43,810 nucleotides of DNA from a virus. Lineage: Duplodnaviria; Heunggongvirae; Uroviricota; Caudoviricetes. Under the pieces are notes generated by a model. The model ran no database searches and had not been told where the DNA came from. It was given only the letters and a program-made list of their open reading frames with translations. Positions 21,296 to 39,454 of this stretch are shown here, piece after piece. Numbering within the stretch: position 1 is the stretch's first letter; each line of letters opens with the position of its first letter. The stretch lies in the IMG/VR virus record IMGVR_UViG_3300028797_000113; one strand, given 5' to 3'. The position numbers were made by a program, and so were the translations under genes.

Positions 21296-21409
21296 TTGCG
21301 TGGGCGAGGATTTACACCTCGCATGATTTAACAGCGCATCATTCTCACACTCATTACGGCGAGCCACCTACTGTGTTTTGTTAGCGTCTACTTATTCCGC
21401 CACCACGCC
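21296..21409 (-). ncRNA. tRNA-like RNA with a 45-nt insert replacing the anticodon loop
   Basis: Minus strand GGCGTGG TG GCGG-AATAAGTAG-ACGC TAACA [45 nt] TGTTA AATCAT GCGAGG-TGTAAAT-CCTCGC CCACGC AA. It has a Leu/Ser-type D arm, a 6-bp T stem with a 7-nt loop, a 6-bp acceptor stem and no CCA. Confidence 0.75.
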
Positions 21410-21417
21410 AGAGAGCA

Positions 21418-22032
21418 TTACTCCTGAGATGCTCCCACAAATTGTTTAATTGAACTCGCTAAGCCTTTTTTCTCTTCTTCGGGCACAATTTCTTTCATAA
21501 CGGCAGCAGTCTCTGCAAACGTCCTAACTGCCTTATCTACTAACTCAGAAATGTAAGCCCGGCTCGACGAGTGTTCATCGTGCCACGTATCAAGCACTCT
21601 GTTATTTACGAGAATGAGTTCGTTAATTTCTCTTTCTCCAATTAAATCACAGAACACACTGATAATGTCATATTGCTGGAACTGGTCATATAGCCCTATT
21701 ACATCCTGTCTTTTCTTAGTGATAGGTTGTCCCTTGTCATCCAACTTAACATTGCCGTTCTCGTCTTTGACTTCATCAATAGCGATGTCAAGTTGCAAAT
21801 CCGTATAAAGACAAACGATGGCCCAAGTAAAATTAATTTTGTTGGCGATCATATCAATGTATGAAATACCATTGTCTCCAACCTTTACACAACCATACAC
21901 GAATCTCGTAAGTACGGCATTCTTCTCCCCGATGGGAGCATACGTCTTAATTAAATGCTTTTGACACCAGTCCTTTTGAGCTTCGGGCTTATGAAGATTA
22001 TTAAAGCCCTGTACAAATTCGCTTACTAACAT
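21418..22032 (-). CDS. Hypothetical protein (possible tail assembly chaperone)
   Basis: Acidic helical 204 aa, good RBS GAAGGAG, upstream of the TMP; function inferred only from position. Confidence 0.45.
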   Translation of the reverse strand: MLVSEFVQGFNNLHKPEAQKDWCQKHLIKTYAPIGEKNAVLTRFVYGCVKVGDNGISYIDMIANKINFTWAIVCLYTDLQLDIAIDEVKDENGNVKLDDKGQPITKKRQDVIGLYDQFQQYDIISVFCDLIGEREINELILVNNRVLDTWHDEHSSSRAYISELVDKAVRTFAETAAVMKEIVPEEEKKGLASSIKQFVGASQE

Positions 22033-22508
22033 ATTTGATTCTCCTTCTTTTCCTTTAACTGCTGACGCAGTTTTCTTACTTCGTCGCTTAATTCGTGAAC
22101 AGCGTAAGTGTGTTGGCTTGCACGAATGTTCGCGTCCTTTTCTATTTCTTTATCGCTATCCTTCACAACAAGAACATCTCTCTTCCTGTCTTGAAAAGAT
22201 TTCTCATAATACATCTGCTCATCAACCACCGAATACCCGCAAACTCCTTGATACGGAATAATGCCTGAAGGAATGTCTCGACCGGGCATCCAAGCACAAA
22301 TATTATAAATCTTTTCCCAATAGTTATCCGTCAATGTCATTGTCACAACTTTTCTTGAAGGTCTAACACCATCCATTACTTCTATCGTTGCGATAATGTC
22401 CTGTCCTTGTTCGGGAAGATTTACACCGTCGGCAAACTGGACTACGGTATGATAACCGCAGTCCGTCGCACGTATGGATTTCTCATATAAAATAGGTTCC
22501 CACGTCAT
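22026..22508 (-). CDS. Hypothetical protein, DUF551-like
   Basis: LPEQGQDIIATI...ICAWMP pattern resembles the DUF551 LP...VxAWMPLP motif; RBS AGGAG. Confidence 0.4.
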   Translation of the reverse strand: MTWEPILYEKSIRATDCGYHTVVQFADGVNLPEQGQDIIATIEVMDGVRPSRKVVTMTLTDNYWEKIYNICAWMPGRDIPSGIIPYQGVCGYSVVDEQMYYEKSFQDRKRDVLVVKDSDKEIEKDANIRASQHTYAVHELSDEVRKLRQQLKEKKENQIC

Positions 22509-22519
22509 CCTTGTTCTCC

Positions 22520-23617
22520 TTAATACATCGCAACACCAGTTTTAATATCGTTATCAATAATTTCCTGAGGAAGCGCTGCACGTATCTTCTTAAATTCTTC
22601 ATCCCCGCCATATTCCTCCGTTCTAACCTTGTTCATAAAGTCGAAGAAGGTGATTTCAGGAATGATGTCAATAAGGTCTTGCATTTTGCCAGTTCTCTGT
22701 ACGGTGTACATCTTCTGCAATACTTCATCTTCGATTTGTGACTCAATCTGTTTATAACACTCGTGATAGAACCTCTTCGCATTAAAGAAGTTCTGCTCAG
22801 CAAAGACGGGTTTTTTGGCCAAACACTCGATATAAGTAAAGTATTGACCGATCATAATCTCTGTTACAAATCGAATAAGAGCGCCATTGAACGGATTTTT
22901 CTTACGGCAGAACTTAACCGCGTTAATTGCCGCTACCGTTGCTCCCCACTGGCAAAGGTCAAAGTTGTACTGAGGTATTCCTTTGTCATCTATTCCCATA
23001 CGGGTAATTGAATGTTCAGAACCAGTCCTCCAGAAGTAAATAGGTGCTTCAATGACATTAATCTTTAAAGGACTTCCGTCTATTGACATACGTATCTTCC
23101 AGTTGAACTCGCCATCTTCCATAGCACGTAATTCAGAGAACTTAATATCCATCTGCTTAAGGAACTCTACTCTGTACATACGTCCAAATACCCAAGGATG
23201 AAACATATCGTTTCTGGGAACCGTCCTCACTCCCTTAGGATGATTGGTTATTTCCTGATAGAAGATGCCTTGAACTTCAACTACATCCGTTGCTATTCCA
23301 CCTTTTAAATATTCAAGAGAGAATGCAGTAAAGAAAACATCGTCCGCGTCTATCCAAGTAATCCACTCGGTCTTGCACGCGTCCGCACATCGCTGTCTTG
23401 CTAATCCCGGACCAGTATTCTTTTCACAATCCAAGATTGTAATATCAAGGTCGGGGAATCTCTCTTTAACGAAATCGTAGTTATCTGTCGGATTATCTTT
23501 CGCAATAATAACAGATACTTCGTCTTTAATTGTTTGTGTTTGAATTGATGCCAAGCAATCGCTAATGTGATTCTCAGCCTTATAAGCAGGTATTCCTACC
23601 GTTAACCATTTGCTCAT
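22520..23617 (-). CDS. Glycosyltransferase family 2 (GT-A fold)
   Basis: LTVGIPAYKAENHISDCLASI, NTGPGLARQ, WITWIDADD (DxD at 23339-23350), AMEDGEFN; RBS AAAGGAG. Confidence 0.92.
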   Translation of the reverse strand: MSKWLTVGIPAYKAENHISDCLASIQTQTIKDEVSVIIAKDNPTDNYDFVKERFPDLDITILDCEKNTGPGLARQRCADACKTEWITWIDADDVFFTAFSLEYLKGGIATDVVEVQGIFYQEITNHPKGVRTVPRNDMFHPWVFGRMYRVEFLKQMDIKFSELRAMEDGEFNWKIRMSIDGSPLKINVIEAPIYFWRTGSEHSITRMGIDDKGIPQYNFDLCQWGATVAAINAVKFCRKKNPFNGALIRFVTEIMIGQYFTYIECLAKKPVFAEQNFFNAKRFYHECYKQIESQIEDEVLQKMYTVQRTGKMQDLIDIIPEITFFDFMNKVRTEEYGGDEEFKKIRAALPQEIIDNDIKTGVAMY

Positions 23618-23638
23618 AAAAATGTCTCCTTTTTCTCA

Positions 23639-24070
23639 TCATATTTCCTCGATGTCAATTTCGGTTCGAGGGTTCTCTTTGTCATATCCAGCCTTATATG
23701 TTAACGACGTTAAATGATTTGAGTCATCATCAACCATAAACCCAGACTCTACAAAACCATCCAAAATAAATTTAGGCACTTGGTTGTCCAAATCGTGCCG
23801 ACGTCTTGTAGAAAAATATACCGTAAACGTAACTTCAAACTTTTCAAGAAGTTTATTCTGATACCCCATGTCATTTACCCACCAAACAACAAACTCTTTC
23901 CACTTCTGCTTAAGAGCATTCATCTGTGGTCTTTTCATAATAAACCAAATGTTTATTGATGGATGATAAGGATGTTCGATAGGAGGTTTACTTGCTCTGG
24001 GGTGTTGAGAAAAGTAATACGCGTTGTACCTATCAAGTACATCATTGTCTAATATTAACTTCATAGCCAT
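23639..24070 (-). CDS. rusA: RusA-family Holliday junction resolvase
   Basis: RRRHDLDNQVPKFILDGFVESGFMVDDD and C-terminal ENPRTEIDI match the RusA DxDN...K...D...DD pattern. Confidence 0.88.
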   Translation of the reverse strand: MAMKLILDNDVLDRYNAYYFSQHPRASKPPIEHPYHPSINIWFIMKRPQMNALKQKWKEFVVWWVNDMGYQNKLLEKFEVTFTVYFSTRRRHDLDNQVPKFILDGFVESGFMVDDDSNHLTSLTYKAGYDKENPRTEIDIEEI

Positions 24071-24085
24071 TACCTAAAGCAACTC

Positions 24086-24110
24086 AAAAGCCAGACATTG
24101 CATCTGGCTT
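24086..24110 (-). terminator. Probable intrinsic terminator after the endolysin
   Basis: AAGCCAGAT-GCAAT-GTCTGGCTT followed by further T residues on the minus strand. Confidence 0.6.
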
Positions 24111-24125
24111 AAGGCTGCATATTCA

Positions 24126-24962
24126 TTATTTTGTTAAAGCGCTCCATGTCTTCGGGCCTACTATTCCGTCTTTTTGGAGTTTGACACCGTTGGCGTCGAC
24201 ATTTTCACTCTGGAATTTTTCGACCGCAGCTTTGGTTTTCGGACCGAATTTACCGTCCACTTTCCCGCAATTATATCCCTTCTCGTTAAGGATAGACTGA
24301 AGAAGTTTTACATATTCACCAGTCGAACCTTTTTGCAATGTAGGATATTTCTTCTGAGGCGCAGGCTGTGCCGAATTAGGCGCCTTGTCTCCGTAACAAA
24401 TATCCATATCAACGACAGAAACAATACCATTGACTCTGCCTTTACTGGAATACTGCCACATAAACGGATCATATTTGCCTTTACTTGTTGCATAATAAGC
24501 CAGCCACAAAGGATATTCAGACACGTCGTTGAATTTATTCTTGAGATAATCGGGGTTGGCATAAATGCCTACGTTGTAACCGTAGCCACTCATAGTCTCA
24601 AGGAATTTCTTAACCCATGCCGTTCTCTGTGCTTTACTCAGACCGGGTTTATATTTATCAGAATCGTATTCCCAATCAGCCCAGACCTTTAAATTAATCT
24701 TGCTTCTGTAGGGTTCGATAGTTTCCTGACATTTCTTTGCGTTGAGAATAATGTCATTCTCGTTTTTCGCATATAAGAACCAGTAAACACCGATGCCAAG
24801 TCCCTGAGATATTGCGCCTTCGATATACGTTCTGAACATAGGATCGACATTTGTCTTTCCCCAGCCCGCTCTGATAATTACAAAAGTAACACCATCTGCC
24901 TTGACTTTTGCCCAGTCAATCTTGCCTTGGTAATTACTTACGTCAATGCCTTTAGATTCCAT
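24126..24962 (-). CDS. Endolysin: GH25 muramidase plus a C-terminal peptidoglycan-binding (PG_binding_1) domain
   Basis: GIDVSNYQGKIDW, VWADWEY, WQYSSKG (GH25); TLQKGSTGEYVKLLQ...DGKFGPKT...DGIVGPKTW (PGBD). Confidence 0.93.
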   Translation of the reverse strand: MESKGIDVSNYQGKIDWAKVKADGVTFVIIRAGWGKTNVDPMFRTYIEGAISQGLGIGVYWFLYAKNENDIILNAKKCQETIEPYRSKINLKVWADWEYDSDKYKPGLSKAQRTAWVKKFLETMSGYGYNVGIYANPDYLKNKFNDVSEYPLWLAYYATSKGKYDPFMWQYSSKGRVNGIVSVVDMDICYGDKAPNSAQPAPQKKYPTLQKGSTGEYVKLLQSILNEKGYNCGKVDGKFGPKTKAAVEKFQSENVDANGVKLQKDGIVGPKTWSALTK

Positions 24963-24963
24963 A

Positions 24964-25284
24964 TTATTCTCCTTTCTTAAAGAGTTGTTCTAAGGCCTGT
25001 TTTACCTTGTCATAGCCGTTGGTTGCACATAAGAAACCAAGGAATGCAAGAGCGATAGAACATACAAGATAAGAAGCACTAAATGGAATATTCTGGACAA
25101 TCGCATAACCAACGCTCAACGCAGCAGAAAGTACAATGGCAATAATGCTTGCGAGAGTGTTGTCAGGTAAACTCTTTTTATAATCTTTGAGGATTGCTTT
25201 AATCGCCTGTAATGTAAGAGAAGTAAAGAGCGATACTGCCAATAATCCCGTAAAGAAAACTCCACCGTATTGAATAATTTCCAT
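24964..25284 (-). CDS. Holin
   Basis: Three hydrophobic segments, charged C-terminus (YDKVKQALEQLFKKGE), immediately upstream of the endolysin. Confidence 0.8.
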   Translation of the reverse strand: MEIIQYGGVFFTGLLAVSLFTSLTLQAIKAILKDYKKSLPDNTLASIIAIVLSAALSVGYAIVQNIPFSASYLVCSIALAFLGFLCATNGYDKVKQALEQLFKKGE

Positions 25285-25286
25285 GG

Positions 25287-25511
25287 TTATTCTCCTTTCT
25301 TAAGCCATTCATCGTATAAGTCTTTCGTGTCTTCACGACTAAAGACAAATACGATTTTGGGTTCATTTGTTTCAAAATTTCTGGATATATAAATATCCAA
25401 TGGCTCTACGCCACTTGACCAATAGAAAGCGGCCTGTTTTGGATTTAAAACTCGGATACTTCCAGTGGTCTGATATTTCTTATTTCTGTATTCAGAAGTA
25501 ACTTCATTCAT
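25287..25511 (-). CDS. Small hypothetical protein (DUF5659-like)
   Basis: Start moved to MNEVT (25511) using the RBS GGAGAAAAAGGA; the ORF-track start overlaps the upstream terminator. IRVLNPKQAAFY...IVFVFSREDTKDLYDEW. Confidence 0.5.
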   Translation of the reverse strand: MNEVTSEYRNKKYQTTGSIRVLNPKQAAFYWSSGVEPLDIYISRNFETNEPKIVFVFSREDTKDLYDEWLKKGE

Positions 25512-25529
25512 ATCCTTTTTCTCCAAACT

Positions 25530-25564
25530 AAAAAAAGGGCACACATATTTATGTACGCGTACCC
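25530..25564 (-). terminator. Intrinsic terminator after the Zn-finger gene
   Basis: GGGTAC...GTGCCC stem with an inner ACATA/TATGT stem, followed by T7. Confidence 0.65.
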
Positions 25565-25573
25565 TATATTAAA

Positions 25574-25960
25574 TTACTCCGCGCACCCTTCTGCCGGAGC
25601 CATAAGCCCAACAGAAGTATCTGCCTCAGAATCTTCTTTCGACTCTTCGACAGGTGTTTCTTTCTCCTTTGAGAAAGAAGGTTTCTTGTCTTTTTTCTGG
25701 ATTTCTTTTATCTTCTCTTGAATATCATTTTTCAAACTGTCAAATTTAGAAGAATCTAACTGGCCAATCATTTCATTGGCTTCTTCTTTCGTAAGATTCC
25801 CTGCACAATAACTTGAAATAGTTTCAAAAACGGTCATACAAGTTTCATCGCAGAAATTGACGTGCCACTCGGGAAGTGGCCTAGGATTACGTTTATTGCA
25901 TTGGAGGCAGAAATAATACTGTGTGCCACACGCCATGCATTTACAATTAGGCTTTTGCAT
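25574..25960 (-). CDS. Cys-rich (Zn-finger) hypothetical protein with an acidic tail
   Basis: CMAC, CLQC and CDETC cysteine clusters; RBS GAAAGGAG. Confidence 0.6.
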   Translation of the reverse strand: MQKPNCKCMACGTQYYFCLQCNKRNPRPLPEWHVNFCDETCMTVFETISSYCAGNLTKEEANEMIGQLDSSKFDSLKNDIQEKIKEIQKKDKKPSFSKEKETPVEESKEDSEADTSVGLMAPAEGCAE

Positions 25961-25986
25961 TTATTTGCTTCTCCTTTCAATCAATA

Positions 25987-26010
25987 AAGAGGGGCCGTTA
26001 AGCCCCTCTT
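25987..26010 (-). terminator. Hairpin after the major tail gene (AAGAGGGGC-TTAACG-GCCCCTCTT)
   Basis: Perfect 9-bp stem 10 nt after the stop codon, followed by TATT. Confidence 0.65.
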
Positions 26011-26020
26011 ATAATTAATC

Positions 26021-26818
26021 TTACGATTCAGCAACTTCAGGAATGATAATCTGATAGAGAATCTTCTGGTTATCGCAGTAAGACTGCTGACACTGAATTG
26101 TGAAAGGATGGTTACCGTCTGTCGTAAAGCTAAGGTCTACGTTAGCATCGAGTTTTGCGTTAGGGAATACAAGGTATGCGTGAATAAGAGTTGTGGGATC
26201 ACAAACGTCTGCACCAAGGATTTCCATAACGAACTTACCAGCCTTAGGGAAGTTAACAGCGTCACCTGTAACTGCTGTACCAGCCTCAAGGTCATAATCA
26301 TACATAACGAAGATTCTGTCGCCTGCCTGTAATGAGGTAGGAGGAGTAATCTTTACGTTAGTTGAATCATAGAAGAACTCGTCTTCGTCAGCAGCAGTTG
26401 AACTTCTGCCGTATGCAGTACCAAGAGTACCATCACCATTCATCTTGTAAACAGTTGAAGGTGCTGTCTTAGGTGTCCGAGATAATGAGTAAGCAGTTGT
26501 ACCACTTACAAGTGTAATCTCGTCGAACATAGGTGTTGAGATAGGAGCAGCCTGAGTTGCTTCCTGAACTTCTACACCGTTCTGTGCTGCGAACAAACCA
26601 AGGTCAAAGAGAGAGTTCTGTGCAGAGAACTCAGCAGATTTACCTCTGTTGAAAACAGCGATTCTTGAGCCAAGTGCATCAACTGCTTCTGCTGTTTCAG
26701 AAGTGATGTTTAATGAAGGCTCTGTAATCTGGTTGATGGACCACATATATGAACCATCAGCAGTAGAAAACATCATACCACGAAGAACGCGGTCAATAAC
26801 AAAGTTATTAATTTTCAT
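26021..26818 (-). CDS. Major tail (tube) protein
   Basis: Beta-rich; ITEPSLNITSETAEAVDALG...FNRGKSAEFSAQNSLFD and YLVFPNAKL...FTIQ are typical siphophage tube patterns. Strongly biased codons and a downstream hairpin. Confidence 0.82.
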   Translation of the reverse strand: MKINNFVIDRVLRGMMFSTADGSYMWSINQITEPSLNITSETAEAVDALGSRIAVFNRGKSAEFSAQNSLFDLGLFAAQNGVEVQEATQAAPISTPMFDEITLVSGTTAYSLSRTPKTAPSTVYKMNGDGTLGTAYGRSSTAADEDEFFYDSTNVKITPPTSLQAGDRIFVMYDYDLEAGTAVTGDAVNFPKAGKFVMEILGADVCDPTTLIHAYLVFPNAKLDANVDLSFTTDGNHPFTIQCQQSYCDNQKILYQIIIPEVAES

Positions 26819-26867
26819 CTGGTTTTTCTCCTTTATAGATTTTTTAATAACGAGCCTATTGGCTCAA

Positions 26868-27605
26868 CTAACTTCGCCTCATCCAGTCGAAGTTTTTCTT
26901 ATCAATTTTACTCGTATCACAGAAACCACTATAACTTCCTTGCAGAAGCGATGTGGAACTAATATAAATATTAGCGCCTTTTACGGTATCCATAAACTCG
27001 TATAATGTGCATTCCTTTAACTCACTCGATTTATACACGAAACCCGGATATCTCATCATCGCAGAGATGAGAGGTATCAACTGACTTCCTTGCTTTGATG
27101 CATCTTTCATAGCCTTCGCCTTGTCGTCCCTATCAACCATAATCAACACGTTTTTAGTGTCTTTGTTTTTGGCTCGCTTAATCTTGGGTTCAATGCCGTG
27201 AATCTTGCGCAGATAGTTGACAATTTTGTGATAGGCTAATTTGTCGATGGTCTGACCAGTTTGTTCATTCCGCAAACACACTTCGTTATTCTCGGGATTA
27301 ACTTGCACTTCCATATCTTCCAAACTTAAATCTGTAAAGATTAGTTTCAAGTCTTCTTTGTTTAACTTGCGCGTAAGCATTATGAACAAATCAAAGTCAT
27401 CCAAAGTTTCCCAGTCAATTTTCATATCCCATAGCGTACTAATCATATCGCTGGGAATACAAGTTAAATAGTGAACCGCAGAGAAATATCTGTCTTCCCC
27501 GAACTCTATGATGTCTCCAACGGTGGGAGACACCATAGTAATTCCTTCATTCACTTGATACTCATATCCCGCAAAGTACATCTGGAGTTCGTTAAGTTCG
27601 AACAT
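26868..27605 (-). CDS. Conserved tail-module protein (possible tail assembly chaperone)
   Basis: Intact 245-aa ORF between the neck and tube genes; function inferred from position. Confidence 0.45.
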   Translation of the reverse strand: MFELNELQMYFAGYEYQVNEGITMVSPTVGDIIEFGEDRYFSAVHYLTCIPSDMISTLWDMKIDWETLDDFDLFIMLTRKLNKEDLKLIFTDLSLEDMEVQVNPENNEVCLRNEQTGQTIDKLAYHKIVNYLRKIHGIEPKIKRAKNKDTKNVLIMVDRDDKAKAMKDASKQGSQLIPLISAMMRYPGFVYKSSELKECTLYEFMDTVKGANIYISSTSLLQGSYSGFCDTSKIDKKNFDWMRRS

Positions 27606-32540: not shown

Positions 32541-34275
32541 AATTTTCTGATGTGTTTGCAAATAAGTTACCATATCTGCCAACGGGTTTCTTGTAAACTG
32601 AAATACCTTTGTAGTGTTCAGCCTGCGTCTCTTTCTCGGAAAGAAGACTAAAGTTACCATGTTTTGCATAGTTTAAAAGAATAGCATCGGCCTGAGTTCT
32701 TACTTCGTCAATGCTTAAGTCAAAGTGATTCTTCTGTTCCTTGAGAGCCTCATACTCTTTAGTTCCGAATATCTTGGAATACTCTTCTGATTCAAGAATT
32801 TCAATCTTATCCGGCTCTTCTTCGTATTTACGAAGTTTCTCTTTGGCTGCTTCGAACTCAACCTTCTGTGCTTCGATTTCGGCCTTCTGTTCTGCCGTTA
32901 CGAATATCTGGAAGACTTCTACTCTGTCTCCGACAAGAGTATAATTTTCTCCATCAAATTCATATTTCTGGCGATAATTGGAATTAGTTAACCAACCGTA
33001 CATCTGGATATATCCATCTTCTTCGAAGAGGTCAACATCCCACCAATCTTCGTCGCCATAAGTAGCATAAACAAGATTATAAATAGCGCTCATCTTTTCA
33101 GAAACACTTAATCCAAATTCTTTGGTTATGCCGTCGAAGTTAACAGTATAAGCAATTTTCTTTGACTCGGCTGTTTCGTCATCATCAATCTTGATGTCTG
33201 CGTCGCCTTCTCCTGTGGTTGTCTCAGTTGTACCGCCAGTGGTTGTGCCACCAGTGGTTGTACCGCCAGTCTCACTCGTGCCACCAGTCGTAGTGCCGCC
33301 AGTTTCTTCTGTACCACCAGTTTCCGATGTGCCACCAGTTTCACTCGTGCCACCAGTTTCTTCTGCACCGCCATTACCGTCGCCATTACCGTCGCCGTCT
33401 GTACTACCGTCTGTCAAGTCATAGTTCTGCTCAAGTTCCTGATCCTGAACCTGCTCAAATTCTTTCTTCTTCACTTCTTCTACCTCCTTTCCCAAAGAGT
33501 CGTTTATATTAAGGTCATTGAGAACCTTTTGAAGATTCGCAACCGCCTCAACCAATTTTGCACTCTGTTCAAATTGAACAGAATTATTTTGTTCGCTGAA
33601 ATCCACAATGTCTGCGCGAGCGCCTAACATACCCTCCTGAATTTCAGTGCCGTCTGCTTCACTTCCAAGAAGTGTAGAGCCGTTAACATAAAATTTTGTT
33701 AAGTCAAGATATTTCTCCTTAGCGTTATAAGACATTTCGTCAATGCATAATTCAACGCTGTTCTTTGTTCCGTTCTTGCGTTCTATGATTTCCGCAGCCT
33801 TAGTATAGTCTATAGGTATATAACCATAGCAACATATATAAGTTTTGTCCGCTTCTTCGTCATATTCTTTCCACGCGGGTTCGGAAGAGAATGAACCAAC
33901 TTGAGATTCTATGTAATGAATTTCTAAGTCTCCATTTTCGTTTTCAACATATTCCATTTCATGACCTTCGAAGTCCCACGTGCCATCATCGAGCTGATGA
34001 ATGGCCGCAAGGATAGGTCTTTCGGGGATAGTCTTCATCGCCTCGTCAGCAGCCTCTTCCGACACGAAACTTCCGTTTCGATTTAACAACGTATGGAACA
34101 GTTTGAATTTAAGTCTCATCAAACCTCTATGCGTATCGTCAGAATCCTCTGCTTCAAAAGTAGCGGGTACTTTGACCGCCAACTTATATCCCGTTGTGGA
34201 AGATGAAAAAGACTGGAGTTTGTTCTCTTGGCAGAATTTAACTAAATCCTCTAAAGTCAAGATAGTCTTTGTCAT
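32539..34275 (-). CDS. Prohead protease fused to a scaffold region
   Basis: N-terminal domain FHTLLNRNGSF...PILA...HEM...KNSVEL...FYVNGSTLLG...EGMLGA, then a G/T/D/E linker and an acidic coiled-coil C-terminus; lies between portal and capsid. Confidence 0.78.
   Translation of the reverse strand: MTKTILTLEDLVKFCQENKLQSFSSSTTGYKLAVKVPATFEAEDSDDTHRGLMRLKFKLFHTLLNRNGSFVSEEAADEAMKTIPERPILAAIHQLDDGTWDFEGHEMEYVENENGDLEIHYIESQVGSFSSEPAWKEYDEEADKTYICCYGYIPIDYTKAAEIIERKNGTKNSVELCIDEMSYNAKEKYLDLTKFYVNGSTLLGSEADGTEIQEGMLGARADIVDFSEQNNSVQFEQSAKLVEAVANLQKVLNDLNINDSLGKEVEEVKKKEFEQVQDQELEQNYDLTDGSTDGDGNGDGNGGAEETGGTSETGGTSETGGTEETGGTTTGGTSETGGTTTGGTTTGGTTETTTGEGDADIKIDDDETAESKKIAYTVNFDGITKEFGLSVSEKMSAIYNLVYATYGDEDWWDVDLFEEDGYIQMYGWLTNSNYRQKYEFDGENYTLVGDRVEVFQIFVTAEQKAEIEAQKVEFEAAKEKLRKYEEEPDKIEILESEEYSKIFGTKEYEALKEQKNHFDLSIDEVRTQADAILLNYAKHGNFSLLSEKETQAEHYKGISVYKKPVGRYGNLFANTSEN
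33205..33410 (-). repeat. Gly/Thr/Glu tandem repeats in the protease-scaffold linker
   Basis: DGDGNGDGNGGA EETGGT SETGGT SETGGT EETGGT TTGGT SETGGT TTGGT TTGGT TETTT. Confidence 0.9.
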
Positions 34276-34287
34276 TTTGTTCCTTTC

Positions 34288-34461
34288 CTATACACATAAA
34301 GTGTTTGTGTATATTACTTTATTTTTGTCAAAGTCTTTCGTCTTTGACGCCGAGTTGATGAATACAAAATATTTACCCTGCTTGGATAATTCCTGATAGC
34401 CACCATCTCTTAATTTTTGAGCAACTCCTTCGTCAGAAGTTTTTACAAAATATCCATTCAT
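34288..34461 (-). CDS. Small hypothetical protein (57 aa)
   Basis: Start moved to MNGYF (34461) using the RBS AAAAGGAG; the longer ORF-track version overlaps the upstream gene. Confidence 0.55.
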   Translation of the reverse strand: MNGYFVKTSDEGVAQKLRDGGYQELSKQGKYFVFINSASKTKDFDKNKVIYTNTLCV

Positions 34462-34465
34462 TCCT

Positions 34466-34783
34466 TTACTCCTTTTCAGGCGGTTCTGTTGGCAGTTCCA
34501 TAAATGATTTACGAATCCCATCCATAACGCCGTTGAGTCCGAGAGAATGATAGTTTGTATATACATTCTCGAAATTCTCTTTAGCGTAAATAGGCGCATA
34601 TCCAAGGTCTGTGTATTTGTTATAACTCGCGATCATCTCTGCTCTTAACAATGCCTGAATACCATTTCTGATGGCATCCTGTTCGATTTTATACTTCTTC
34701 AGTTTGGTTGCGAAGTATGTAAACATTGCACCGAATACAGCAGTAGGAATACCAAAGTAAGCCAATACTTGCCAAATACTCAT
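34466..34783 (-). CDS. Single-TM membrane protein, holin-like family
   Basis: N-terminal TM helix (WQVLAYFGIPTAVFGAMFTYFA) then ALLRAEMI...YHSLGLNG...MELP. Start moved to MSIWQ (34783) using the RBS AAAGGGGG. Confidence 0.55.
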   Translation of the reverse strand: MSIWQVLAYFGIPTAVFGAMFTYFATKLKKYKIEQDAIRNGIQALLRAEMIASYNKYTDLGYAPIYAKENFENVYTNYHSLGLNGVMDGIRKSFMELPTEPPEKE

Positions 34784-34800
34784 ATTATCTTCCCCCTTTC

Positions 34801-36318
34801 TCAATTATTCCGACTCTTGTCTCCTTCAGGTGTCAAATCTTTGTCGTCTTTTGTGGGCGCACCTTGTCCGGTTTCGGGAGTGTAACCATCTTCTCTTGAC
34901 GTAGTAAATGACGAACTCAAAGGATAAATCATTTTGTCTTGTAGTTTAAGAACTTCGGTTTCAAGATAAATCTGAGCAAGCTGTTCTTTCTCACTTACGC
35001 CAATAAGAGTACCGTAAGCAAGCCTGTTCGCATATCCGTATTGACAACTCTCAAGCATTTGCTTTGCAAGTTCTTCGCGCGTATATACTGAACATTCAAA
35101 GTGCTTTACTTTCGACGGCTTAGTCATCATATAACTTAACTGCATATTGCAGAAGCCATCAATCTGCGGAAGTAAAGGAGAGATAGCAAATTCCGTCTCT
35201 GCTTTCAACCACGCATTAAAGGCAGCAGTGCTTGTAATGTTATTAGCGTTAATAACAGCGCCACCACCAGCCGTCTGTAATATTTGGTTAGAGGAGATTT
35301 CGACACTGTTGGTGTCTTTATCAACACTCTTTTCAAAATCAATTGTTTTTAATTCACGACCGGGAATAACAGCCTTTCCGACATTGTCGGGTATCTGGCC
35401 AGTTTCACTCATTCGATCAAAATACGCACTCGCCAAGTCGGGACTTATTTCAAAGTCATCCGCCTGCTTCGTTCCCGAAAGAACATTCATAGGCATATAT
35501 ATTAATTTATATATTGCAAGGGCGTCAGCTTCAGCCTGAATGTCAACCAAGTCTTCCAATCCCGCCAATTGAAGATACAACGGAAGGAATGGAGGAACAT
35601 TCATGTTAAACGTGTCTGTTCTGAATTTGAAACATACACTGTATTTTGCCGGGCAGTGAACATATTTATGAGACTGGTCTTTCTCGTACTCTTTGTACAT
35701 AGACACCAGAGGTTCCCCAATCATTTCCAATAAGGTCTGCTTCTGAGAAGTTTTCCATTTGGACATATCTATGGAGAAACCATAGCACCCATAAAAGTAT
35801 TTGCCATCAATAACACATTCATCAGGGTCTAACTGATAGAAGAACGAACCCATATCGTCTTGTAACAGAAGACCATAATAAACATCTTCTCTGAAGACCG
35901 TAATCAACGCCTCCAGCATATTCCCCTGAAGGTTAAGAACGTCTAAACAGTTTAAGGTGTTTTGATAAGAACGTAATATTTCTTTGGCCGTAGAATCAGT
36001 CGCTTCTTTCGTAAGGTCATAATTAGGTGTAATCTTACGACAGTCTAAGCAAAACATCGAAGCGTACCAGTTAATAAGCCTAAAATATATATTAGACCTA
36101 TAATATAAATACCTTGATGTATTTCTTAGGTTCTTTTCATTACCGCCAACATTCTGAATCCATCTTTTTACTTCGTCTTTGTTGATAGCACGAACAGTTG
36201 GATTAATAATTTTATTAACGTCACGTAATGATTGGAGCGTTGAATCCATCGCCTTTTTAAACATTACCTGATTATTTGTTTCGACAGCCGCAGGGTTGTC
36301 ATTTAAAATTTCGCCCAT
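34801..36318 (-). CDS. Portal protein
   Basis: 505 aa directly after terL; LRNTSRYLYY.SNIYFRLI, FREDVYYG, PPFLPL motifs; RBS AAGGAGG. Confidence 0.85.
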   Translation of the reverse strand: MGEILNDNPAAVETNNQVMFKKAMDSTLQSLRDVNKIINPTVRAINKDEVKRWIQNVGGNEKNLRNTSRYLYYRSNIYFRLINWYASMFCLDCRKITPNYDLTKEATDSTAKEILRSYQNTLNCLDVLNLQGNMLEALITVFREDVYYGLLLQDDMGSFFYQLDPDECVIDGKYFYGCYGFSIDMSKWKTSQKQTLLEMIGEPLVSMYKEYEKDQSHKYVHCPAKYSVCFKFRTDTFNMNVPPFLPLYLQLAGLEDLVDIQAEADALAIYKLIYMPMNVLSGTKQADDFEISPDLASAYFDRMSETGQIPDNVGKAVIPGRELKTIDFEKSVDKDTNSVEISSNQILQTAGGGAVINANNITSTAAFNAWLKAETEFAISPLLPQIDGFCNMQLSYMMTKPSKVKHFECSVYTREELAKQMLESCQYGYANRLAYGTLIGVSEKEQLAQIYLETEVLKLQDKMIYPLSSSFTTSREDGYTPETGQGAPTKDDKDLTPEGDKSRNN

Positions 36319-36330
36319 GGGCTACCTCCT

Positions 36331-36544
36331 TAATTTTTTTATTAAAGACCCGACGTGGTCCGCATCGTTGAGAGGCGTGTCGGGTACGTATCAAAATTGG
36401 ACTCGACTTTGACGAATGCTTACGCAGTTATGGATTTCACATAAGGATTAAATATGAAAGCATTTTATTTTAACGCAGACTCGGCGGGATTTTCCCTTCT
36501 CCCCACAGTGTTGACTATACAGACTTTGCCTCGGTTACCAACCA
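36331..36544 (-). ncRNA. Candidate structured RNA in the terL-portal spacer
   Basis: No credible ORF. Stems ACCCGAC/GTCGGGT (36348-36385) with inner CGC/GCG, AATGCTT/AAGCATT (36415-36464) with an inner TTCATAT/ATGTGAA hairpin, and GGGA/TCCC. Confidence 0.45.
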
Positions 36545-38296
36545 TTAACGCCCGCGATTAAAACTATGTTTTGCTGGTTTATTGAAGAACTTATTCAATA
36601 ACGTCTGAGTGTCTTCAGCCTTGGGTTTTAATTGCAACTCAAGTTGGGTTGCGCACCAGAAATTATAAGCAATAGACGAATAACGGTCCTTACGCATACC
36701 CGATTGTTCGTGTACTTTTATCTTACCGTCTTTAACTTCGTGTTCGAGTTTGATTAGCTCATAGATAGCAAGAGTAGTCTGTACAAACGGATTCTTAATA
36801 AGTGCCTGTTCCCCATCTGACAACGATTTAAACTTCTTCATTGTCTTCTCAATCTTGTCATTACTTTCAGTCTCGTCAATAAGAAGATTGATTTTGCCGT
36901 TCATGATTCCAGTTCTTAATAAAACACAGATTTCATTGTTGAATGCCGCACTTGCTTTAACAGACCAAACTACCTTGTTGGCTTCTTTAACCTTACATCT
37001 TGCCGCCATGTCTTCATCATTGATACAAGTTAATGCTTTATATACCTTACCCGTTTCGGGATCGTATTGGTCTTTTATAATAAAGTCATATACACCTATA
37101 CCCAGACCTTGTGTATCAAGTACGAGGTCGGTACATTTGTAACAATAAAAGTATCGCATAATAATAAGGCCGAGGGCATCGGTTGTCTTACCCTCGAAAC
37201 TTTCGCCATAACAGAAATTAGATTGGTATGTTGTAGCATCTTGTTGTACCAATTCATTGATAAACAATGACGCCGCATCGTTTTTCTTTTTCTTGGTAGA
37301 CTGCATCAACGCAACGTCGACCGACAATATTCTCTTGCCGTTATCCGATACTCTGGGTACGGGGTTATTGGCATTATAATATTTTAACGGCAATAATGCG
37401 TGTTCAATCTTTCGACAGTGTTTCAGGTCATCAAACTTGAATAGACTATCCCCGTCATCTCCGAACCAGAATGTTTCCATCTCCATCTTGAACAACAGTT
37501 CATTGAAGTTGGTTTCACTCATTTCGTCTTCGATTTGTTCTCTCGAAAGAAGTCCTTCGCGGATTGACAGTTGATACGGAAGACCGACAATAAAATATTT
37601 TCTCTTGTCGTCAAGGAAATTCAAGGTATAACTCTGAACTTTTTTCCAAGCCCACGAACTCTTAAAATAAGCCGAAGACATATAAATCTCTTGGTTACGC
37701 TCCATTAAATGAGCATACTCCGGCTTATTTAAAAAGTCGGGATGTCTTGGTGTTCCCAAGAATCTTCTGATAACCGTATTAAGAATGTTTTCGTCTACCA
37801 TTCTGAACTCATCCACTACGATTAGGTTCGCTCTACCAGAACGAGCATTATCTGTACTAGGTCTTGTTCTTATCCACGAACCGCATTTGAATTTGATTTC
37901 CGCGCTTTGATTGGCCGGAATATTACATTTCGAAATCTCGTTTCTCAAGAACGCAGACTTTGGCATAAGTTCATCTTGAATTTTTAACAGAACTTCGTTT
38001 GCTTGTGGTATGGTTCCCGAACAGACAATGATCTTACTGCCCGGAAACAGAATACATCTGATAACACAAAAAATAGCCGTTAGATATGTTTTACCTAACG
38101 ACCTTGCTGCGATAAATGCAAAGTAATTATAATGCATCATCGCCCATAAAAGAATCTGCTGAAACCACTTAAGGTTTAAATTCAGACAGTCTTTTGCAAA
38201 TCTTTGTGGGTTGGCGCGGTAATAACCCGCGTACCAAGCAACCGTTTCCATTATCTTGTCTTTTTTAAGCTGAGCCTTTTGAGAAGCATTACTCAT
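36545..38296 (-). CDS. terL: Terminase large subunit
   Basis: Walker A AARSLGKT, Walker B LIVVDEFR, coupling motif YMSSA, nuclease acidic residues ILSVDVA / LVLDTQG / KDRYSS. Confidence 0.93.
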   Translation of the reverse strand: MSNASQKAQLKKDKIMETVAWYAGYYRANPQRFAKDCLNLNLKWFQQILLWAMMHYNYFAFIAARSLGKTYLTAIFCVIRCILFPGSKIIVCSGTIPQANEVLLKIQDELMPKSAFLRNEISKCNIPANQSAEIKFKCGSWIRTRPSTDNARSGRANLIVVDEFRMVDENILNTVIRRFLGTPRHPDFLNKPEYAHLMERNQEIYMSSAYFKSSWAWKKVQSYTLNFLDDKRKYFIVGLPYQLSIREGLLSREQIEDEMSETNFNELLFKMEMETFWFGDDGDSLFKFDDLKHCRKIEHALLPLKYYNANNPVPRVSDNGKRILSVDVALMQSTKKKKNDAASLFINELVQQDATTYQSNFCYGESFEGKTTDALGLIIMRYFYCYKCTDLVLDTQGLGIGVYDFIIKDQYDPETGKVYKALTCINDEDMAARCKVKEANKVVWSVKASAAFNNEICVLLRTGIMNGKINLLIDETESNDKIEKTMKKFKSLSDGEQALIKNPFVQTTLAIYELIKLEHEVKDGKIKVHEQSGMRKDRYSSIAYNFWCATQLELQLKPKAEDTQTLLNKFFNKPAKHSFNRGR

Positions 38297-39353
38297 CTAA
38301 CTTCCCAAACATCTTTTCAAATAATTCCTCATTGATTTCATCGTCTTCATACTCAGGCTTAGTAACCGTGTACTTTTGCATAAACCTGTCATATGAGGCG
38401 CTGAAAGCGTTTTTAAGTCCCATCATTTTTGCCAGATGTCCTTTAAAGAACACGTCAATAAGTTTTCCTATTCCATCAACGTCCCTAAATTCTTCTGACG
38501 GCTCAGCTATGGGTCTGGTATGCTCCCACACTTCAATCATTTGAGAAAATGTATTCGAATCTGTAAAAGCGTTGGAGGCATTTTGTGACGGCTTTAACTG
38601 AGCAGAACCCAACAACTCTTGAAGAGTTTTATCCAGTTCCTTTGTGTCCTTTCCGTCTTTCTGTGCCTTGTCAATTTCCAACTCTTTAAAACAAATACGC
38701 TTGAACAACAGTTCCTGAGCTTTGCTGTCGCAGGCATATCTGGCTGTCCAATCCTCGTATTCAGTTTCCAAAAATAAAAGGTCGACATTAGTGTAGTCTC
38801 TGCCAAATCTTTTCCGGGCTTTTCTAAGAAGTTCTTCGTTTTCTTCGAGTTCTTCTTCGTCAAGTTCGGTTGTAGTTATGGAAGAGCCAAAATCACTGTC
38901 GGCCCATGTCTTATCTTGCCACTGCTTGAGTGACATAATAGACGTTATATAAGTGGCGAAGGGGGAGTTTCGAGTCTTCTCTTTAACTCCATCCATCGCG
39001 CCCTTAACACATTGTTCATAAAAAGCATCGTCGTAAGGACGATTCAACATCTGAAGAACCTTCTGAACGCTCTCTTTGGTTTCATTGGGTTCATCTCTGT
39101 CTTTCTGTCTTTGTTCCACCATCTTCAAAAGACATTCCTTGCAGACCGGGTATTTCATTGTAACAAAGCGATTGTCATTATAAAATGACGTTTCGCGTTT
39201 TTTAAACTCCCCGCACTTGGGGCAAAGCACTATGTCCTTGTCAAGAATGGCGTTATAACTGTCGGCGACTTTGGTGTACTCTTCCGAAAGAGTAGTTATA
39301 CCCCGCTTCGCCTTTATCTCCTGAATGTCAGGAGCATACATTAAACTTGCCAT
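38289..39353 (-). CDS. Probable terminase small subunit with a Zn ribbon
   Basis: Overlaps the terL start; CPKC...CKEC; helical acidic C-half (RICFKELEIDKAQ...ELDKTLQELLG). Confidence 0.65.
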   Translation of the reverse strand: MASLMYAPDIQEIKAKRGITTLSEEYTKVADSYNAILDKDIVLCPKCGEFKKRETSFYNDNRFVTMKYPVCKECLLKMVEQRQKDRDEPNETKESVQKVLQMLNRPYDDAFYEQCVKGAMDGVKEKTRNSPFATYITSIMSLKQWQDKTWADSDFGSSITTTELDEEELEENEELLRKARKRFGRDYTNVDLLFLETEYEDWTARYACDSKAQELLFKRICFKELEIDKAQKDGKDTKELDKTLQELLGSAQLKPSQNASNAFTDSNTFSQMIEVWEHTRPIAEPSEEFRDVDGIGKLIDVFFKGHLAKMMGLKNAFSASYDRFMQKYTVTKPEYEDDEINEELFEKMFGKLDE

Positions 39354-39379
39354 TTAAAAATCTCCTTTCAATCCTAAGA

Positions 39380-39454
39380 GCGCGTAGACGGGATTTGAAC
39401 CCGCGACACATCCATTACTAATGGACCGCTCCTGCCGAACTGAGCTACTACGCT
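39380..39454 (-). tRNA. tRNA-Thr(AGT)-like gene with a non-canonical acceptor end
   Basis: AGCGTAG TA GCTC-AGTTCGGCAG-GAGC G GTCCA-TTAGTAA-TGGAT GTGTC GCGGG-TTCAAAT-CCCGT CTACGCG C. Full cloverleaf with anticodon AGT (39417-39419), A1:G72 mismatch, C73, no encoded CCA. Confidence 0.8.

What the first reader, a model, noticed from the sequence alone, without database searches (positions are those of the whole stretch)
21296..39454. Two tRNA-like elements share an acceptor signature: possible tRNA-punctuation of a YonO-made late transcript
Seen: both elements (39380-39454 and 21296-21409) are on the coding strand in intergenic gaps, have a 6-bp acceptor stem GCGTRG/CYACGC capped by a purine-purine 1:72 mismatch (A:G and G:A), lack CCA, and end within about 15-20 nt of the next RBS (terS and the pre-TMP gene). 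Established: animal mitochondria cut polycistronic RNA at tRNAs, and a 1:72 mismatch (as in tRNA-fMet) disfavours EF-Tu binding. Inference: this phage, which has its own late RNAP, may use tRNA mimics as host-RNase cut sites to split and tune a 40-kb late mRNA at module boundaries (packaging, tape measure). A dedicated factor might instead recognise the shared acceptor stem.
Basis: inference. Interest (0 to 1): 0.7.

Follow-up and report, generated by a model that had tools for sequence, protein, structure and literature searches.

The report
tRNA-shaped RNAs in phage late operon
A large rumen phage related to Bacillus phage SPbeta carries two different tRNA-derived RNA genes inside its late gene block, each kept at the same gene junction in related phages. 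They probably act as sites where host tRNA-processing enzymes cut the long late RNA, but the "shared acceptor signature" that linked them is most likely coincidence.

Summary
Both elements are real, on the coding (minus) strand, in two of the few large intergenic gaps. They are different things.

**Element 1 (39380-39454)** is a tRNA-Thr(AGU) by Rfam (50.5 bits), with an A1·G72 mismatch and no CCA.

**Element 2 (21296-21409)** is not a tRNA by ARAGORN or Rfam. It is a full-length member (77.9 bits) of a large family of anticodon-less tRNA-Leu-shaped phage RNAs. The family is absent from Rfam 15, but this scan has met it before on other DNA.

**New here:** both junctions are conserved.
- All seven relatives with DNA keep a tRNA-Leu-derived element 28-31 nt before the pre-tape-measure gene.
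- In 41 of 79 YonG loci, a CCA-less tRNA of varying identity lies within 150 nt upstream of yonG.
- In this phage's sub-clade the acceptor, D and T arms are conserved with compensatory changes, while the anticodon arm is remodelled.

**The shared acceptor signature is not conserved.** The match is 3 of 6 in a complete relative, and the element 2 ortholog pairs position 1:72.

**Best reading:** both are excised from the late RNA by RNase P and RNase Z, which cuts the mRNA just before two ribosome-binding sites. Cleavage is untested. A function for the released RNA itself is a live rival, especially for element 2.

The parts
39380..39454 (-). Element 1: tRNA-Thr(AGU)-like gene. It has an A1·G72 mismatch, discriminator C and no CCA, and a canonical 5-bp anticodon stem with a 7-nt loop.
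   Evidence: ARAGORN and Rfam RF00005 at 50.5 bits. Orthologs in L132, L133, L134, L137, L138 and L139 keep the acceptor, D and T arms but not the anticodon arm.
39455..39513 (-). Leader between the HU-like gene and element 1. It holds a conserved TTATATA-like box (39496-39502) and two hairpins (39475-39489 and 39460-39474) that vary in sequence but keep pairing in relatives.
   Evidence: Alignments A3 and A8, read by eye; no formal covariation count was done. A terminator-like hairpin at 39506-39529 with a U-rich tail comes from the consensus scan.
38289..39353 (-). YonG-family gene, first gene of the packaging block. Its start lies 26 nt after element 1, and the large terminase gene follows at 36545-38296.
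   Evidence: Homologs carry Pfam YonG_N and YonG_C. It shares 34% identity with SPbeta yonG by tblastn. Terminase PHROG and Pfam hits on the next ORF.
39514..39864 (-). HU-like DNA-binding protein gene, in the position of SPbeta yonN, upstream of element 1.
   Evidence: Pfam Bac_DNA_binding at 9.2e-12 and phrog_379. Same synteny in L132-L134 and in SPbeta.
40265..42859 (-). Candidate YonO-like single-chain RNA polymerase (864 aa).
   Evidence: Synteny with SPbeta yonO-yonN. Weak collinear BLASTP match to SPbeta YonO: 19% identity over 647 aa, E 0.019, with a DxDxD motif aligned. phrog_8308, no Pfam hit. This is an inference, not shown.
21296..21409 (-). Element 2: a member of the anticodon-less tRNA-Leu-shaped phage RNA family. 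Features: a 6-bp acceptor plus a G·A mismatch, a class II Leu-type D arm, a 61-nt insert in place of the anticodon arm, a 6-bp T stem, T loop UGUAAAU, and no CCA.
   Evidence: Covariance model R1, built without this sequence, scores it 77.9 bits, E 2.9e-18, full length. True tRNA-Leu genes score 36-45 bits. No ARAGORN or Rfam hit.
20767..21264 (-). Gene preceding the tape measure gene (165 aa, no family). Its start lies 31 nt after element 2. The 3623-aa tape measure ORF follows at 9883-20754.
   Evidence: ORF list. RBS and start are conserved in four relatives. Downstream genes in relatives hit PhageMin_Tail.
21418..22032 (-). Upstream co-directional ORF (204 aa, no family). Its TAA stop lies 8 nt before element 2.

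Best explanation
The window is the late (packaging, head, tail) block of a 130-kb SPbeta-like phage from ruminant gut. It has the gene order YonO-like, HU, YonG, terminase, portal. Two unrelated tRNA-derived RNA genes sit in it in the sense orientation, at junctions that relatives also occupy with tRNA-derived elements.

**Element 1** belongs to a lineage-wide habit of keeping a CCA-less tRNA 25-40 nt upstream of yonG, at the head of the late block. In this phage's sub-clade only the top half is conserved: acceptor pairs 2-7, the D arm and the T arm.

**Element 2** is a member of the large uncatalogued family of tRNA-Leu frames whose anticodon arm is replaced by a variable insert.

**Proposed mechanism (inferred, not shown):**
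1. Both elements are transcribed as part of the late RNA.
2. Each folds into a tRNA-like L shape.
3. Host RNase P cuts at the 5' end.
4. Because they lack CCA, host RNase Z cuts after the discriminator.
5. This releases a small stable RNA and unavoidably severs the mRNA about 26-31 nt before the start codons of yonG and of the pre-tape-measure gene.
6. Each downstream segment is left with a short, defined leader.

Whether selection acts on the cut (mRNA segmentation or leader trimming), on the released RNA, or on both is unresolved. The similar acceptor stems are most likely coincidence or shared descent.
For: **Identity of the elements**
- Element 1 is a tRNA.
- Element 2 scores 77.9 bits against model R1.
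- The family shows strong covariation: 10 of 16 pairs change on both sides, and 99.6% of cells pair against 35-42% when the structure is slid. The seed was chosen for pairing, so the paired percentage is partly built in.

**Conserved position, element 2 junction**
- L129 scores 78.2 bits, L131 43.3, L130 28.5, L217 50.1, L218/L219 26 and L220/L221 27.5 (the last cut at the contig end). G002 scores 59.2 bits about 18 kb downstream of yonG.
- Where the start is mapped, the element ends 28-31 nt before it.

**Conserved position, yonG junction**
- 41 of 79 YonG loci have a same-strand tRNA ending within 150 nt upstream of yonG; 19 are within 40 nt.
- The identities vary: Thr, Gly, Met, Pro, Asn, Lys, Ser and Trp.

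**Top-half selection**
- In seven distinct sub-clade sequences the D stem is invariant.
- Acceptor pairs 2-7 are always paired, with four pairs changed on both sides.
- The T stem has two compensatory pairs.
- The anticodon arm exists in three different forms.

**Fit as a processing substrate**
- None of 26 yonG-proximal tRNAs, and only 2 of 64 family members, encode CCA.
- B. subtilis RNase Z cuts CCA-less precursors after the discriminator, and RNase P cuts them in vivo (PMC1874595).

**Placement across the family**
- 22 of 94 members start within 12 nt of a co-directional stop.
- 18 of 94 end 19-33 nt before an RBS plus start codon.
- Flanking genes are diverse.
- All 90 neighbouring tRNAs are co-oriented with the element.

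**Transcription and host**
- SPbeta late genes form one YonO operon that starts after yonN, upstream of an unannotated ncRNA (PMC5467207).
- A Bacillota host is suggested by a Lachnospiraceae MAG homolog of YonG.
Against: - No RNA end data exist. The one metatranscriptome holds only low-depth contigs.
- About half of the YonG loci lack a tRNA at the junction. These include G001 (14-nt gap), L135 and SPbeta itself. Cutting there cannot be essential to this phage type.
- Many of the 79 loci are near-identical, so the counts are not independent.
- Element 2's family also occurs in free-standing ncRNA and tRNA islands. Some members lie beside ROOL or drum RNAs or have their own terminators. It keeps an unusual G55 T loop and a 13-bp acceptor-T stack. 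This points to a function of the RNA itself beyond being a cleavage site.
- Those same deviations could weaken RNase P or RNase Z recognition.
- In this genome element 1 has a fully canonical anticodon arm, and ACU is a common codon: 312 of 978 Thr codons. It may simply be a working tRNA.
- YonO homology is weak.
Confidence: 0.55

Rival explanations
1. The released RNAs are the point. Element 2, and perhaps the degenerate element 1 lineage, would be trans-acting tRNA mimics. They could bind or titrate a factor that reads the tRNA-Leu elbow and acceptor, such as LeuRS, a modification enzyme, a tRNA-targeting defence nuclease, or a phage protein. In this reading they sit in the late operon only to be expressed late, and cutting the mRNA is a by-product.
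For: - The family's D arm and T arm are near invariant across very diverse phages, while the acceptor and insert vary.
- The conserved G55 T loop and the extra T-stem pair are not needed for mere processing.
- Two thirds of members have no tRNA within 1 kb, and some have their own terminators. Others lie beside ROOL or drum RNAs.
- The same genome has two more copies in its tRNA islet.
- From my own knowledge, not checked here: the retained parts (acceptor, D arm, T arm) are those that E. coli LeuRS needs, while the anticodon and variable arms are dispensable.
Against: - No partner has been identified.
- The discriminator base varies: A 29, U 18, G 8, C 8 of 63. That argues against uniform LeuRS charging.
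- The strict conservation of the junction and of the 28-31 nt spacing to the start codon in relatives is not explained by a purely trans role.
Confidence: 0.3
2. Nothing special: element 1 is an ordinary decoding phage tRNA-Thr, and element 2 is a decayed tRNA-Leu pseudogene. Both merely sit in tolerated intergenic sites.
For: - Element 1 has a canonical cloverleaf with U33 and A37 at 50.5 bits.
- ACU is common in the late genes.
- Relatives L131 and L217 carry near-canonical tRNA-Leu-like genes at the element 2 junction.
- Phage tRNAs are often scattered among genes.
Against: - A pseudogene would decay evenly. Here the top halves stay invariant or compensated while the adjacent proteins drop to 44-76% identity.
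- Element 2 matches a family of more than 100 members with strong covariation.
- Orthologs of element 1 have 3-, 6- or 8-nt anticodon loops and cannot decode normally.
- Element 1 lacks the G1-C72 and C2-G71 pairs. From my own knowledge, these are ThrRS identity elements in E. coli.
Confidence: 0.12
3. Element 2 is a Y-RNA-like (YrlA-type) partner of the phage's Ro60-like protein, like the two tRNA-shaped RNAs beside that gene elsewhere in the genome.
For: - An earlier scan report (e1-1848766) reads elements A and B, next to a DUF2828/vWA gene, this way.
- B belongs to the same family as element 2, at 61.7 bits.
- YrlA RNAs mimic tRNA and can be cut by RNase P (PMC4201824).
Against: - YrlA has a permuted order: Ro-binding strand, then T, a closed acceptor-like stem, then D. 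It also has a GNCGAAN0-1G motif. Element 2 has the normal tRNA order, an open acceptor and no such motif.
- Rfam YrlA gives no hit.
- By Pfam the protein is DUF2828 + DUF7788/VWA, not TROVE.
- tblastn finds no homolog of that protein in 118 family loci.
- Element 2 lies about 68 kb from that gene.
Confidence: 0.08
4. A dedicated phage or host factor reads the shared GCGURG/CYACGC acceptor with its 1:72 mismatch on both elements.
For: - The two acceptors are identical at 5 of 6 positions in this genome, while none of 63 family acceptors reaches that.
- One ortholog of element 1 (L138) has exactly element 2's stem.
- Position 1:72 is unpaired in 5 of 7 element 1 orthologs.
Against: - In the complete relative G002 the two stems match at only 3 of 6.
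- Element 2 orthologs pair 1:72: G:C in L129, U:A in L131 and L217, U·G in L130.
- Stems drift by compensatory change in both lineages.
Confidence: 0.04

Closest known systems
tRNA-mRNA co-transcripts such as the E. coli thrU-tyrU-glyT-thrT-tufB operon and the phage T4 tRNA cluster (from my own knowledge)
   Same: tRNA genes lie upstream of, and in the same orientation as, a protein gene. They are made on one transcript and removed by tRNA-processing nucleases, which defines the mRNA's 5' end.
   Different: In this sub-clade the tRNA has lost a conserved decoding arm but keeps its top half. A second, non-decoding tRNA frame sits deep inside the structural operon. Co-transcription and cleavage are not shown.
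tRNA punctuation of animal mitochondrial polycistronic RNA (from my own knowledge)
   Same: tRNA-shaped units lie between coding regions on the coding strand, with very short spacers: 8 nt upstream and 31 nt downstream for element 2. RNase P and RNase Z are the expected cutters.
   Different: Only two or three junctions out of about 35 are punctuated. The elements are optional in the lineage, and the downstream RBS must be kept.
MALAT1-mascRNA and MEN-beta tRNA-like 3'-end processing (Rfam RF01684; mechanism from my own knowledge)
   Same: A non-decoding tRNA-like top half is used as an RNase P/RNase Z site inside a longer transcript. Conserved structure immediately upstream, here two hairpins before element 1, could cap the upstream product.
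   Different: That is a eukaryotic nuclear system. There is no sequence relation, and mascRNA scored only 14.8 bits on an unrelated spot. The hairpin role is pure inference.
Anticodon-less tRNA-Leu-shaped phage RNA family, reported earlier by this scan on other DNA (e1-3450235, e1-1616849, e1-5441308 and others). Those reports compare it with the T4 rnaC/rnaD and T5 RNA1/RNA2 stable RNAs.
   Same: Element 2 has every defining feature: the Leu-type D arm, a 6-bp T stem, T loop UGYAAAU, a covarying acceptor and an insert in place of the anticodon arm.
   Different: This copy is wedged in a tail operon at a syntenically conserved junction, not in a tRNA or ncRNA island. Its 1:72 position is mismatched, and its T loop has U56 in place of C56.
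YrlA-type bacterial and phage Y RNAs (PMC4201824)
   Same: They are tRNA mimicry by a non-coding RNA with D-like and T-like arms. At least one member is an RNase P substrate.
   Different: YrlA has a circularly permuted order, a closed acceptor-like stem, a Ro-binding motif and a neighbouring TROVE gene. None of these is found for element 2.

Membership tests
Canonical tRNA (Rfam RF00005) | Covariance-model score above the gathering threshold of 29 bits | tested here: met
   Element 1 scores 50.5 bits. Element 2 has no hit even at E<=10, so it is not a member.
Canonical tRNA (Rfam RF00005) | 5-bp anticodon stem with a 7-nt loop, U33 and a purine at 37 | tested here: met
   Element 1 has GUCCA / UUAGUAA / UGGAU. 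Its orthologs fail this test, with 4-bp stems and 7-8-nt loops lacking U33, or 3-nt loops. Element 2 has no such arm.
Canonical tRNA (Rfam RF00005) | Seven paired acceptor positions including 1:72 (elongator type) | tested here: not met
   Element 1 has A1·G72. Position 1:72 is unpaired in 5 of 7 distinct orthologs.
Canonical tRNA (Rfam RF00005) | Aminoacylation and use in decoding | not testable with these tools
   Only indirect data: ACU makes up 312 of 978 Thr codons in the window's ORFs.
   Element 2 scores 77.9 bits over model positions 1-116. Family members score 57-89 bits and true tRNA-Leu 36-45 bits. Element 1 has no hit at E<=1.
   Element 2 has the D arm (exact pattern match), T stem GCGAGG/CCUCGC, loop UGUAAAU and a 61-nt insert.
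   Element 2 has six pairs plus G1·A72. A 1:72 mismatch occurs in 5 of 63 distinct members. Ortholog L129 has all seven pairs.
YrlA-type Y RNA | Permuted order: 5' Ro-binding strand with GNCGAAN0-1G, then the T arm, a closed acceptor-like stem, the D arm, then the 3' strand | tested here: not met
   Element 2 has the normal tRNA order with an open acceptor. Its GGCGGAA does not fit the motif. There is no Rfam RF02553 hit.
YrlA-type Y RNA | Encoded within about 4 kb of, and on the same strand as, a TROVE (Ro60) gene | tested here: not met
   The nearest candidate is a DUF2828 + DUF7788/VWA protein about 68 kb away, and Pfam does not call it TROVE. No homolog is found in 118 family loci.
tRNA punctuation or processing signal in a polycistronic RNA | A sense-strand tRNA-shaped unit between co-directional genes, at a junction conserved in relatives | tested here: met
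tRNA punctuation or processing signal in a polycistronic RNA | Cleavage at the 5' and 3' ends of the unit in vivo | not testable with these tools
   Only assembled metatranscriptome contigs at depth of about 3 were available.
SPbeta-like phage with a YonO-transcribed late operon | Synteny of yonO, yonN (HU), yonG, yonF (terminase) and yonE (portal) | tested here: met
SPbeta-like phage with a YonO-transcribed late operon | Homology of the 864-aa protein to YonO | tested here: inconclusive
   19% identity over 647 aa, E 0.019, with the DxDxD motif aligned. No Pfam family.

The most novel reading that the evidence does not exclude
In this SPbeta-like lineage, tRNA top halves have been domesticated as dedicated RNase P/RNase Z cleavage modules. 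They would trim and segment the single late transcript at the heads of the packaging and tail-assembly blocks. This would be a bacterial-virus counterpart of mitochondrial tRNA punctuation and of mascRNA-type 3'-end formation. The anticodon half, freed from decoding, would then be open to remodelling or to carrying cargo domains.
Probability: 0.25. Interest if true: 0.8.

Novelty: new variant of a known kind. Interest (0 to 1): 0.55.

Why it matters
- It would give a concrete, testable case of tRNA-shaped processing signals shaping phage late gene expression in Bacillota.
- It would suggest at least one job for a very large, uncatalogued family of tRNA-Leu-shaped phage RNAs whose function is unknown.
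- The comparative pattern shows that selection can act on a tRNA gene for something other than decoding: the junction and top half are conserved while the anticodon arm is free.
- It also flags a trap for annotation. ARAGORN calls such as "tRNA-???", "tRNA-Ile" or "tRNA-Thr" at these junctions may not be decoders.

Tried and rejected
- **blastn against the phage collection.** Both junctions gave no DNA match.
- **Thermodynamic stability.** Single-sequence folding gave insignificant z-scores (-1.2, -0.6 and -1.0). Stability is uninformative here; covariation carried the argument.
- **ARAGORN with intron or relaxed settings.** It produced several doubtful calls, for example an intron-containing "tRNA-Ile" overlapping the HU gene next to element 1. 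These were not pursued.
- **RNA evidence.** The single metatranscriptome run (X24) gave only short contigs at depth of about 3. One spans roughly 21073-21270. Contigs cannot show RNA ends, so nothing is concluded about cleavage, transcription or read-through.
- **Back-translated searches with the pre-tape-measure protein.**
  - In IMG/VR they found nothing.
  - In the metagenome collection they found one locus.
  - Relatives therefore came from the protein database plus contig look-ups. Two of those look-ups returned no DNA.
- **YrlA/Ro60 reading.** Considered and set aside; see the membership tests.
- **SPbeta itself.** It has no tRNA-like element in the yonN-yonK gap.
- **Literature searches.** None found a description of the element 2 family. 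This is not proof that none exists.

Full report
**What is in the sequence**

Every sizeable ORF in the window runs on the minus strand. Only five gaps between the accepted ORFs reach 100 nt: 21265-21417, 34276-34800, 36319-36544, 39354-39513 and 40065-40264. Two smaller ORFs were left out of the 34276-34800 gap.

Element 1 (39380-39454, minus strand):
- It is called tRNA-Thr(AGU) by ARAGORN.
- It matches Rfam's tRNA model at 50.5 bits.
- The alignment shows A1 opposite G72, acceptor pairs 2-7 GCGUAG/CUACGC, discriminator C and no CCA.
- It ends 26 nt before the next start codon.

Element 2 (21296-21409, minus strand):
- It has GCGUGG/CCACGC with G1 opposite A72 and no CCA.
- It starts 8 nt after a TAA stop.
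- It ends 31 nt before the start of the gene that precedes the 3623-aa tape measure ORF.
- ARAGORN does not call it, and Rfam finds nothing even at E<=10.

So the description is accurate, but "two tRNA-like elements" hides the fact that they are different objects.

**What element 2 is**

Its first 22 bases recur in the phage's tRNA islet 67 kb away. The window is part of a 129,668-bp IMG/VR virus record.

Only about eight of these are ordinary tRNA-Leu genes. The rest share one architecture:
- a variable 7-nt 5' acceptor strand;
- UG, then the class II Leu-type D arm;
- an insert of 8 to about 200 nt in place of the anticodon arm, usually ending CAUG;
- a 6-bp T stem with loop UGCAAAU (G instead of U at position 55);
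- the complementary 3' acceptor strand.

Covariation in the family:
- I aligned 32 non-redundant members, excluding element 2 (A2).
- 10 of 16 pairs change on both sides, and each variable acceptor pair (six of the seven) shows three or more pair types.
- 99.6% of cells pair, against 35-42% when the structure is slid.
- The seed was chosen for pairing, so the percentage is partly built in. The diversity of the acceptors is not.

Scores against the covariance model R1:

| Sequence | R1 score |
|---|---|
| Element 2 | 77.9 bits, full length |
| Element B in the tRNA islet | 61.7 bits |
| Element A in the tRNA islet | 37.2 bits |
| Family members in general | 57-89 bits |
| True tRNA-Leu genes | 36-45 bits |
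| Element 1 | no hit at E<=1 |

Rfam 15 has no model for the family. Some members lie directly beside ROOL and drum RNAs. This scan has reported the same family on other DNA several times, always with unknown function. I reached it independently and then found those notes.

**How the family sits in genomes**

I examined 94 members:
- 22 start within 12 nt of the stop of a co-directional ORF.
- 18 end 19-33 nt before an RBS plus start codon.
- Element 2 does both (8 nt and 31 nt).

The flanking genes are unrelated to one another: DNA polymerases, an HNH endonuclease, Erf, endolysins, SSB, primase and a head morphogenesis protein. This argues against a gene-specific cis-regulator.

About a third of members have a tRNA within 1 kb. 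All 90 such neighbouring tRNAs are on the same strand as the element. Only 2 of 64 distinct members encode CCA.

**The element 2 junction is conserved**

Homologs of the 165-aa downstream protein led to contigs at 42-73% protein identity. Every one that yielded DNA has a tRNA-Leu-derived element just upstream:

| Locus | Protein identity | R1 score | Notes |
|---|---|---|---|
| L129 | 73% | 78.2 bits | Same acceptor and T arm as element 2, different insert, position 1:72 is G:C |
| L131 | 44% | 43.3 bits | ARAGORN tRNA-Leu(AAG), canonical T loop |
| L217 | 44% | 50.1 bits | Canonical T loop |
| L130 | 54% | 28.5 bits | 6-nt anticodon loop |
| L218/L219 | 42% | 26 bits | 6-nt anticodon loop |
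| L220/L221 | 48% | 27.5 bits | UGUAAAU-type element, cut by the contig end |

The complete relative G002 has a 59.2-bit member about 18 kb downstream of yonG, in front of the same conserved RBS. The trailer and RBS are nearly invariant in the four relatives aligned. The element ends 28-31 nt before the ATG wherever the start was mapped.

**The element 1 junction is conserved more widely**

The downstream gene is YonG-family, and the upstream gene is HU-like, as yonN is in SPbeta.

In 80 IMG/VR loci found with a YonG alignment, ARAGORN gave these results:
- 41 of 79 usable loci have a same-strand tRNA ending within 150 nt upstream of yonG.
- 19 of these are within 40 nt.
- The identities vary: Thr(UGU), Gly, Met, Pro, Asn, Lys, Ser and Trp.
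- Many loci are near-identical, so these are not independent counts.

None of the 26 proximal tRNAs I inspected encodes CCA, and most trailers inspected are U-rich.

In the sub-clade nearest to this phage (YonG identity 65-76%; L132-L134, L137/L152, L138, L139, L141), the tRNA shows this pattern:
- The D stem is invariant.
- Acceptor pairs 2-7 always pair, with four pairs changed on both sides.
- The T stem has two compensated pairs.
- Position 1:72 is unpaired in 5 of 7 distinct sequences and is A:U in the other two.
- The anticodon arm comes in three forms:
  - a 4-bp stem with a 7-8-nt loop lacking U33;
  - a 5-bp stem with a 3-nt loop;
  - the canonical arm, found only in this window.

This is selection on the top half, not on decoding.

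**The shared signature**

Within this genome the two stems match at 5 of 6 positions. No other family acceptor does as well (0 of 63). One ortholog of element 1 (L138) even carries element 2's exact stem.

Against this:
- In G002 the two stems match at only 3 of 6.
- The orthologs of element 2 pair position 1:72.
- Both lineages drift by compensatory change.

I read the resemblance as chance or shared descent. I give a dedicated acceptor-reading factor about 4%.

**Context and mechanism**

The gene order is: a YonO-like 864-aa protein, a small ORF, HU, element 1, YonG, terminase, portal. This mirrors SPbeta. The match to YonO is weak but collinear, with the DxDxD motif aligned.

[quoted passage not shown] In this window a terminator-like hairpin with a U-rich tail overlaps the end of the HU gene. 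It is followed in all relatives by a conserved TTATATA-like box and two hairpins that keep pairing while changing sequence, and then by the tRNA (read by eye).

Element 1 is therefore probably in the 5' leader of the late transcript. Element 2 lies about 18 kb further into it.

In B. subtilis, RNase Z cuts CCA-less precursors right after the discriminator, and RNase P cuts them in vivo (PMC1874595). A Lachnospiraceae MAG homolog of YonG and the bovine and sheep gut sources point to a Bacillota host.

If these elements fold as their conservation implies, they will be excised. That necessarily cuts the RNA 26-31 nt before two start codons. This step is inferred, not shown.

**Rivals and limits**

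- For element 2 especially, the unusual conserved T loop, the 13-bp acceptor-T stack and the many free-standing copies suggest that the released RNA has a job of its own. The two ideas are not exclusive.
- Element 1 may still decode ACU in this phage.
- Roughly half of YonG loci, including SPbeta itself, have no tRNA at the junction. The arrangement is therefore optional.
- The only RNA data were low-depth assembled contigs. These cannot show RNA ends.

Noticed in passing
window 36348-36384 (-): An abiF RNA motif (Rfam RF03085, 39.6 bits, above its threshold) sits in the 226-nt terminase-portal gap and ends about 25 nt before the portal start codon. This is the same layout as the two tRNA-shaped elements. 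Many unrelated metagenome contigs match only this 37-nt piece (loose ends at 36347 and 36385).
   Followed up: partly
L136 5973-6038 (SPbeta, NC_001884.1, yonN-yonK gap): A DUF3800-VIII RNA motif (RF03075, 47.5 bits) lies in the 1.7-kb unannotated gap where Forrest et al. place the YonO start site and an unannotated ncRNA. It may be that ncRNA.
   Followed up: no
G000:C1 5318-5417 and 5471-5645 (L002 1342-1441 and 1495-1669): Two further tRNA-Leu-shaped elements lie between tRNA-Asn and a CUA-anticodon tRNA. B is a family member with a nested canonical T-arm hairpin in its insert. A scores only at the tRNA-Leu level and has a 10-nt anticodon loop. The neighbouring 500-aa gene is DUF2828 + DUF7788/VWA by Pfam, not TROVE.
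   Followed up: partly
L220 1-82 and G000:C1 5471-5645: The element at the pre-tape-measure junction of relative L220 has the 3' acceptor strand CUAUGCA, the same as element B in this phage's tRNA islet. This hints at exchange between islet and operon copies.
   Followed up: no
L131 about 2785-2815: Read by eye: a good sigma-70-type promoter (TTGACA, 17 nt, TAATAT) about 70-100 nt upstream of that relative's tRNA-Leu-like element. In some relatives the tail-assembly block may therefore have its own host-type promoter.
   Followed up: no
L083 667-1385; L076 2-335: Family members lie directly next to a ROOL RNA (260.7 bits) and a drum RNA (72.3 bits) in other phage contigs.
   Followed up: no
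window 40065-40264 (-): A 200-nt AT-rich gap lies between the YonO-like gene and the next small ORF. It has no recognised element and was not examined further.
   Followed up: no
window, whole; G000:C1 5779-5852: TAG ends 4 of 34 complete ORFs in the window, while the genome carries a tRNA with anticodon CUA. An earlier scan report already treats this.
   Followed up: no
window 21324-21383 (read laying joints, run X3): Contigs of another bovine gut sample match only the conserved 5' and 3' ends of element 2, with other sequence in between. This is consistent with family members carrying different inserts in the same habitat.
   Followed up: no
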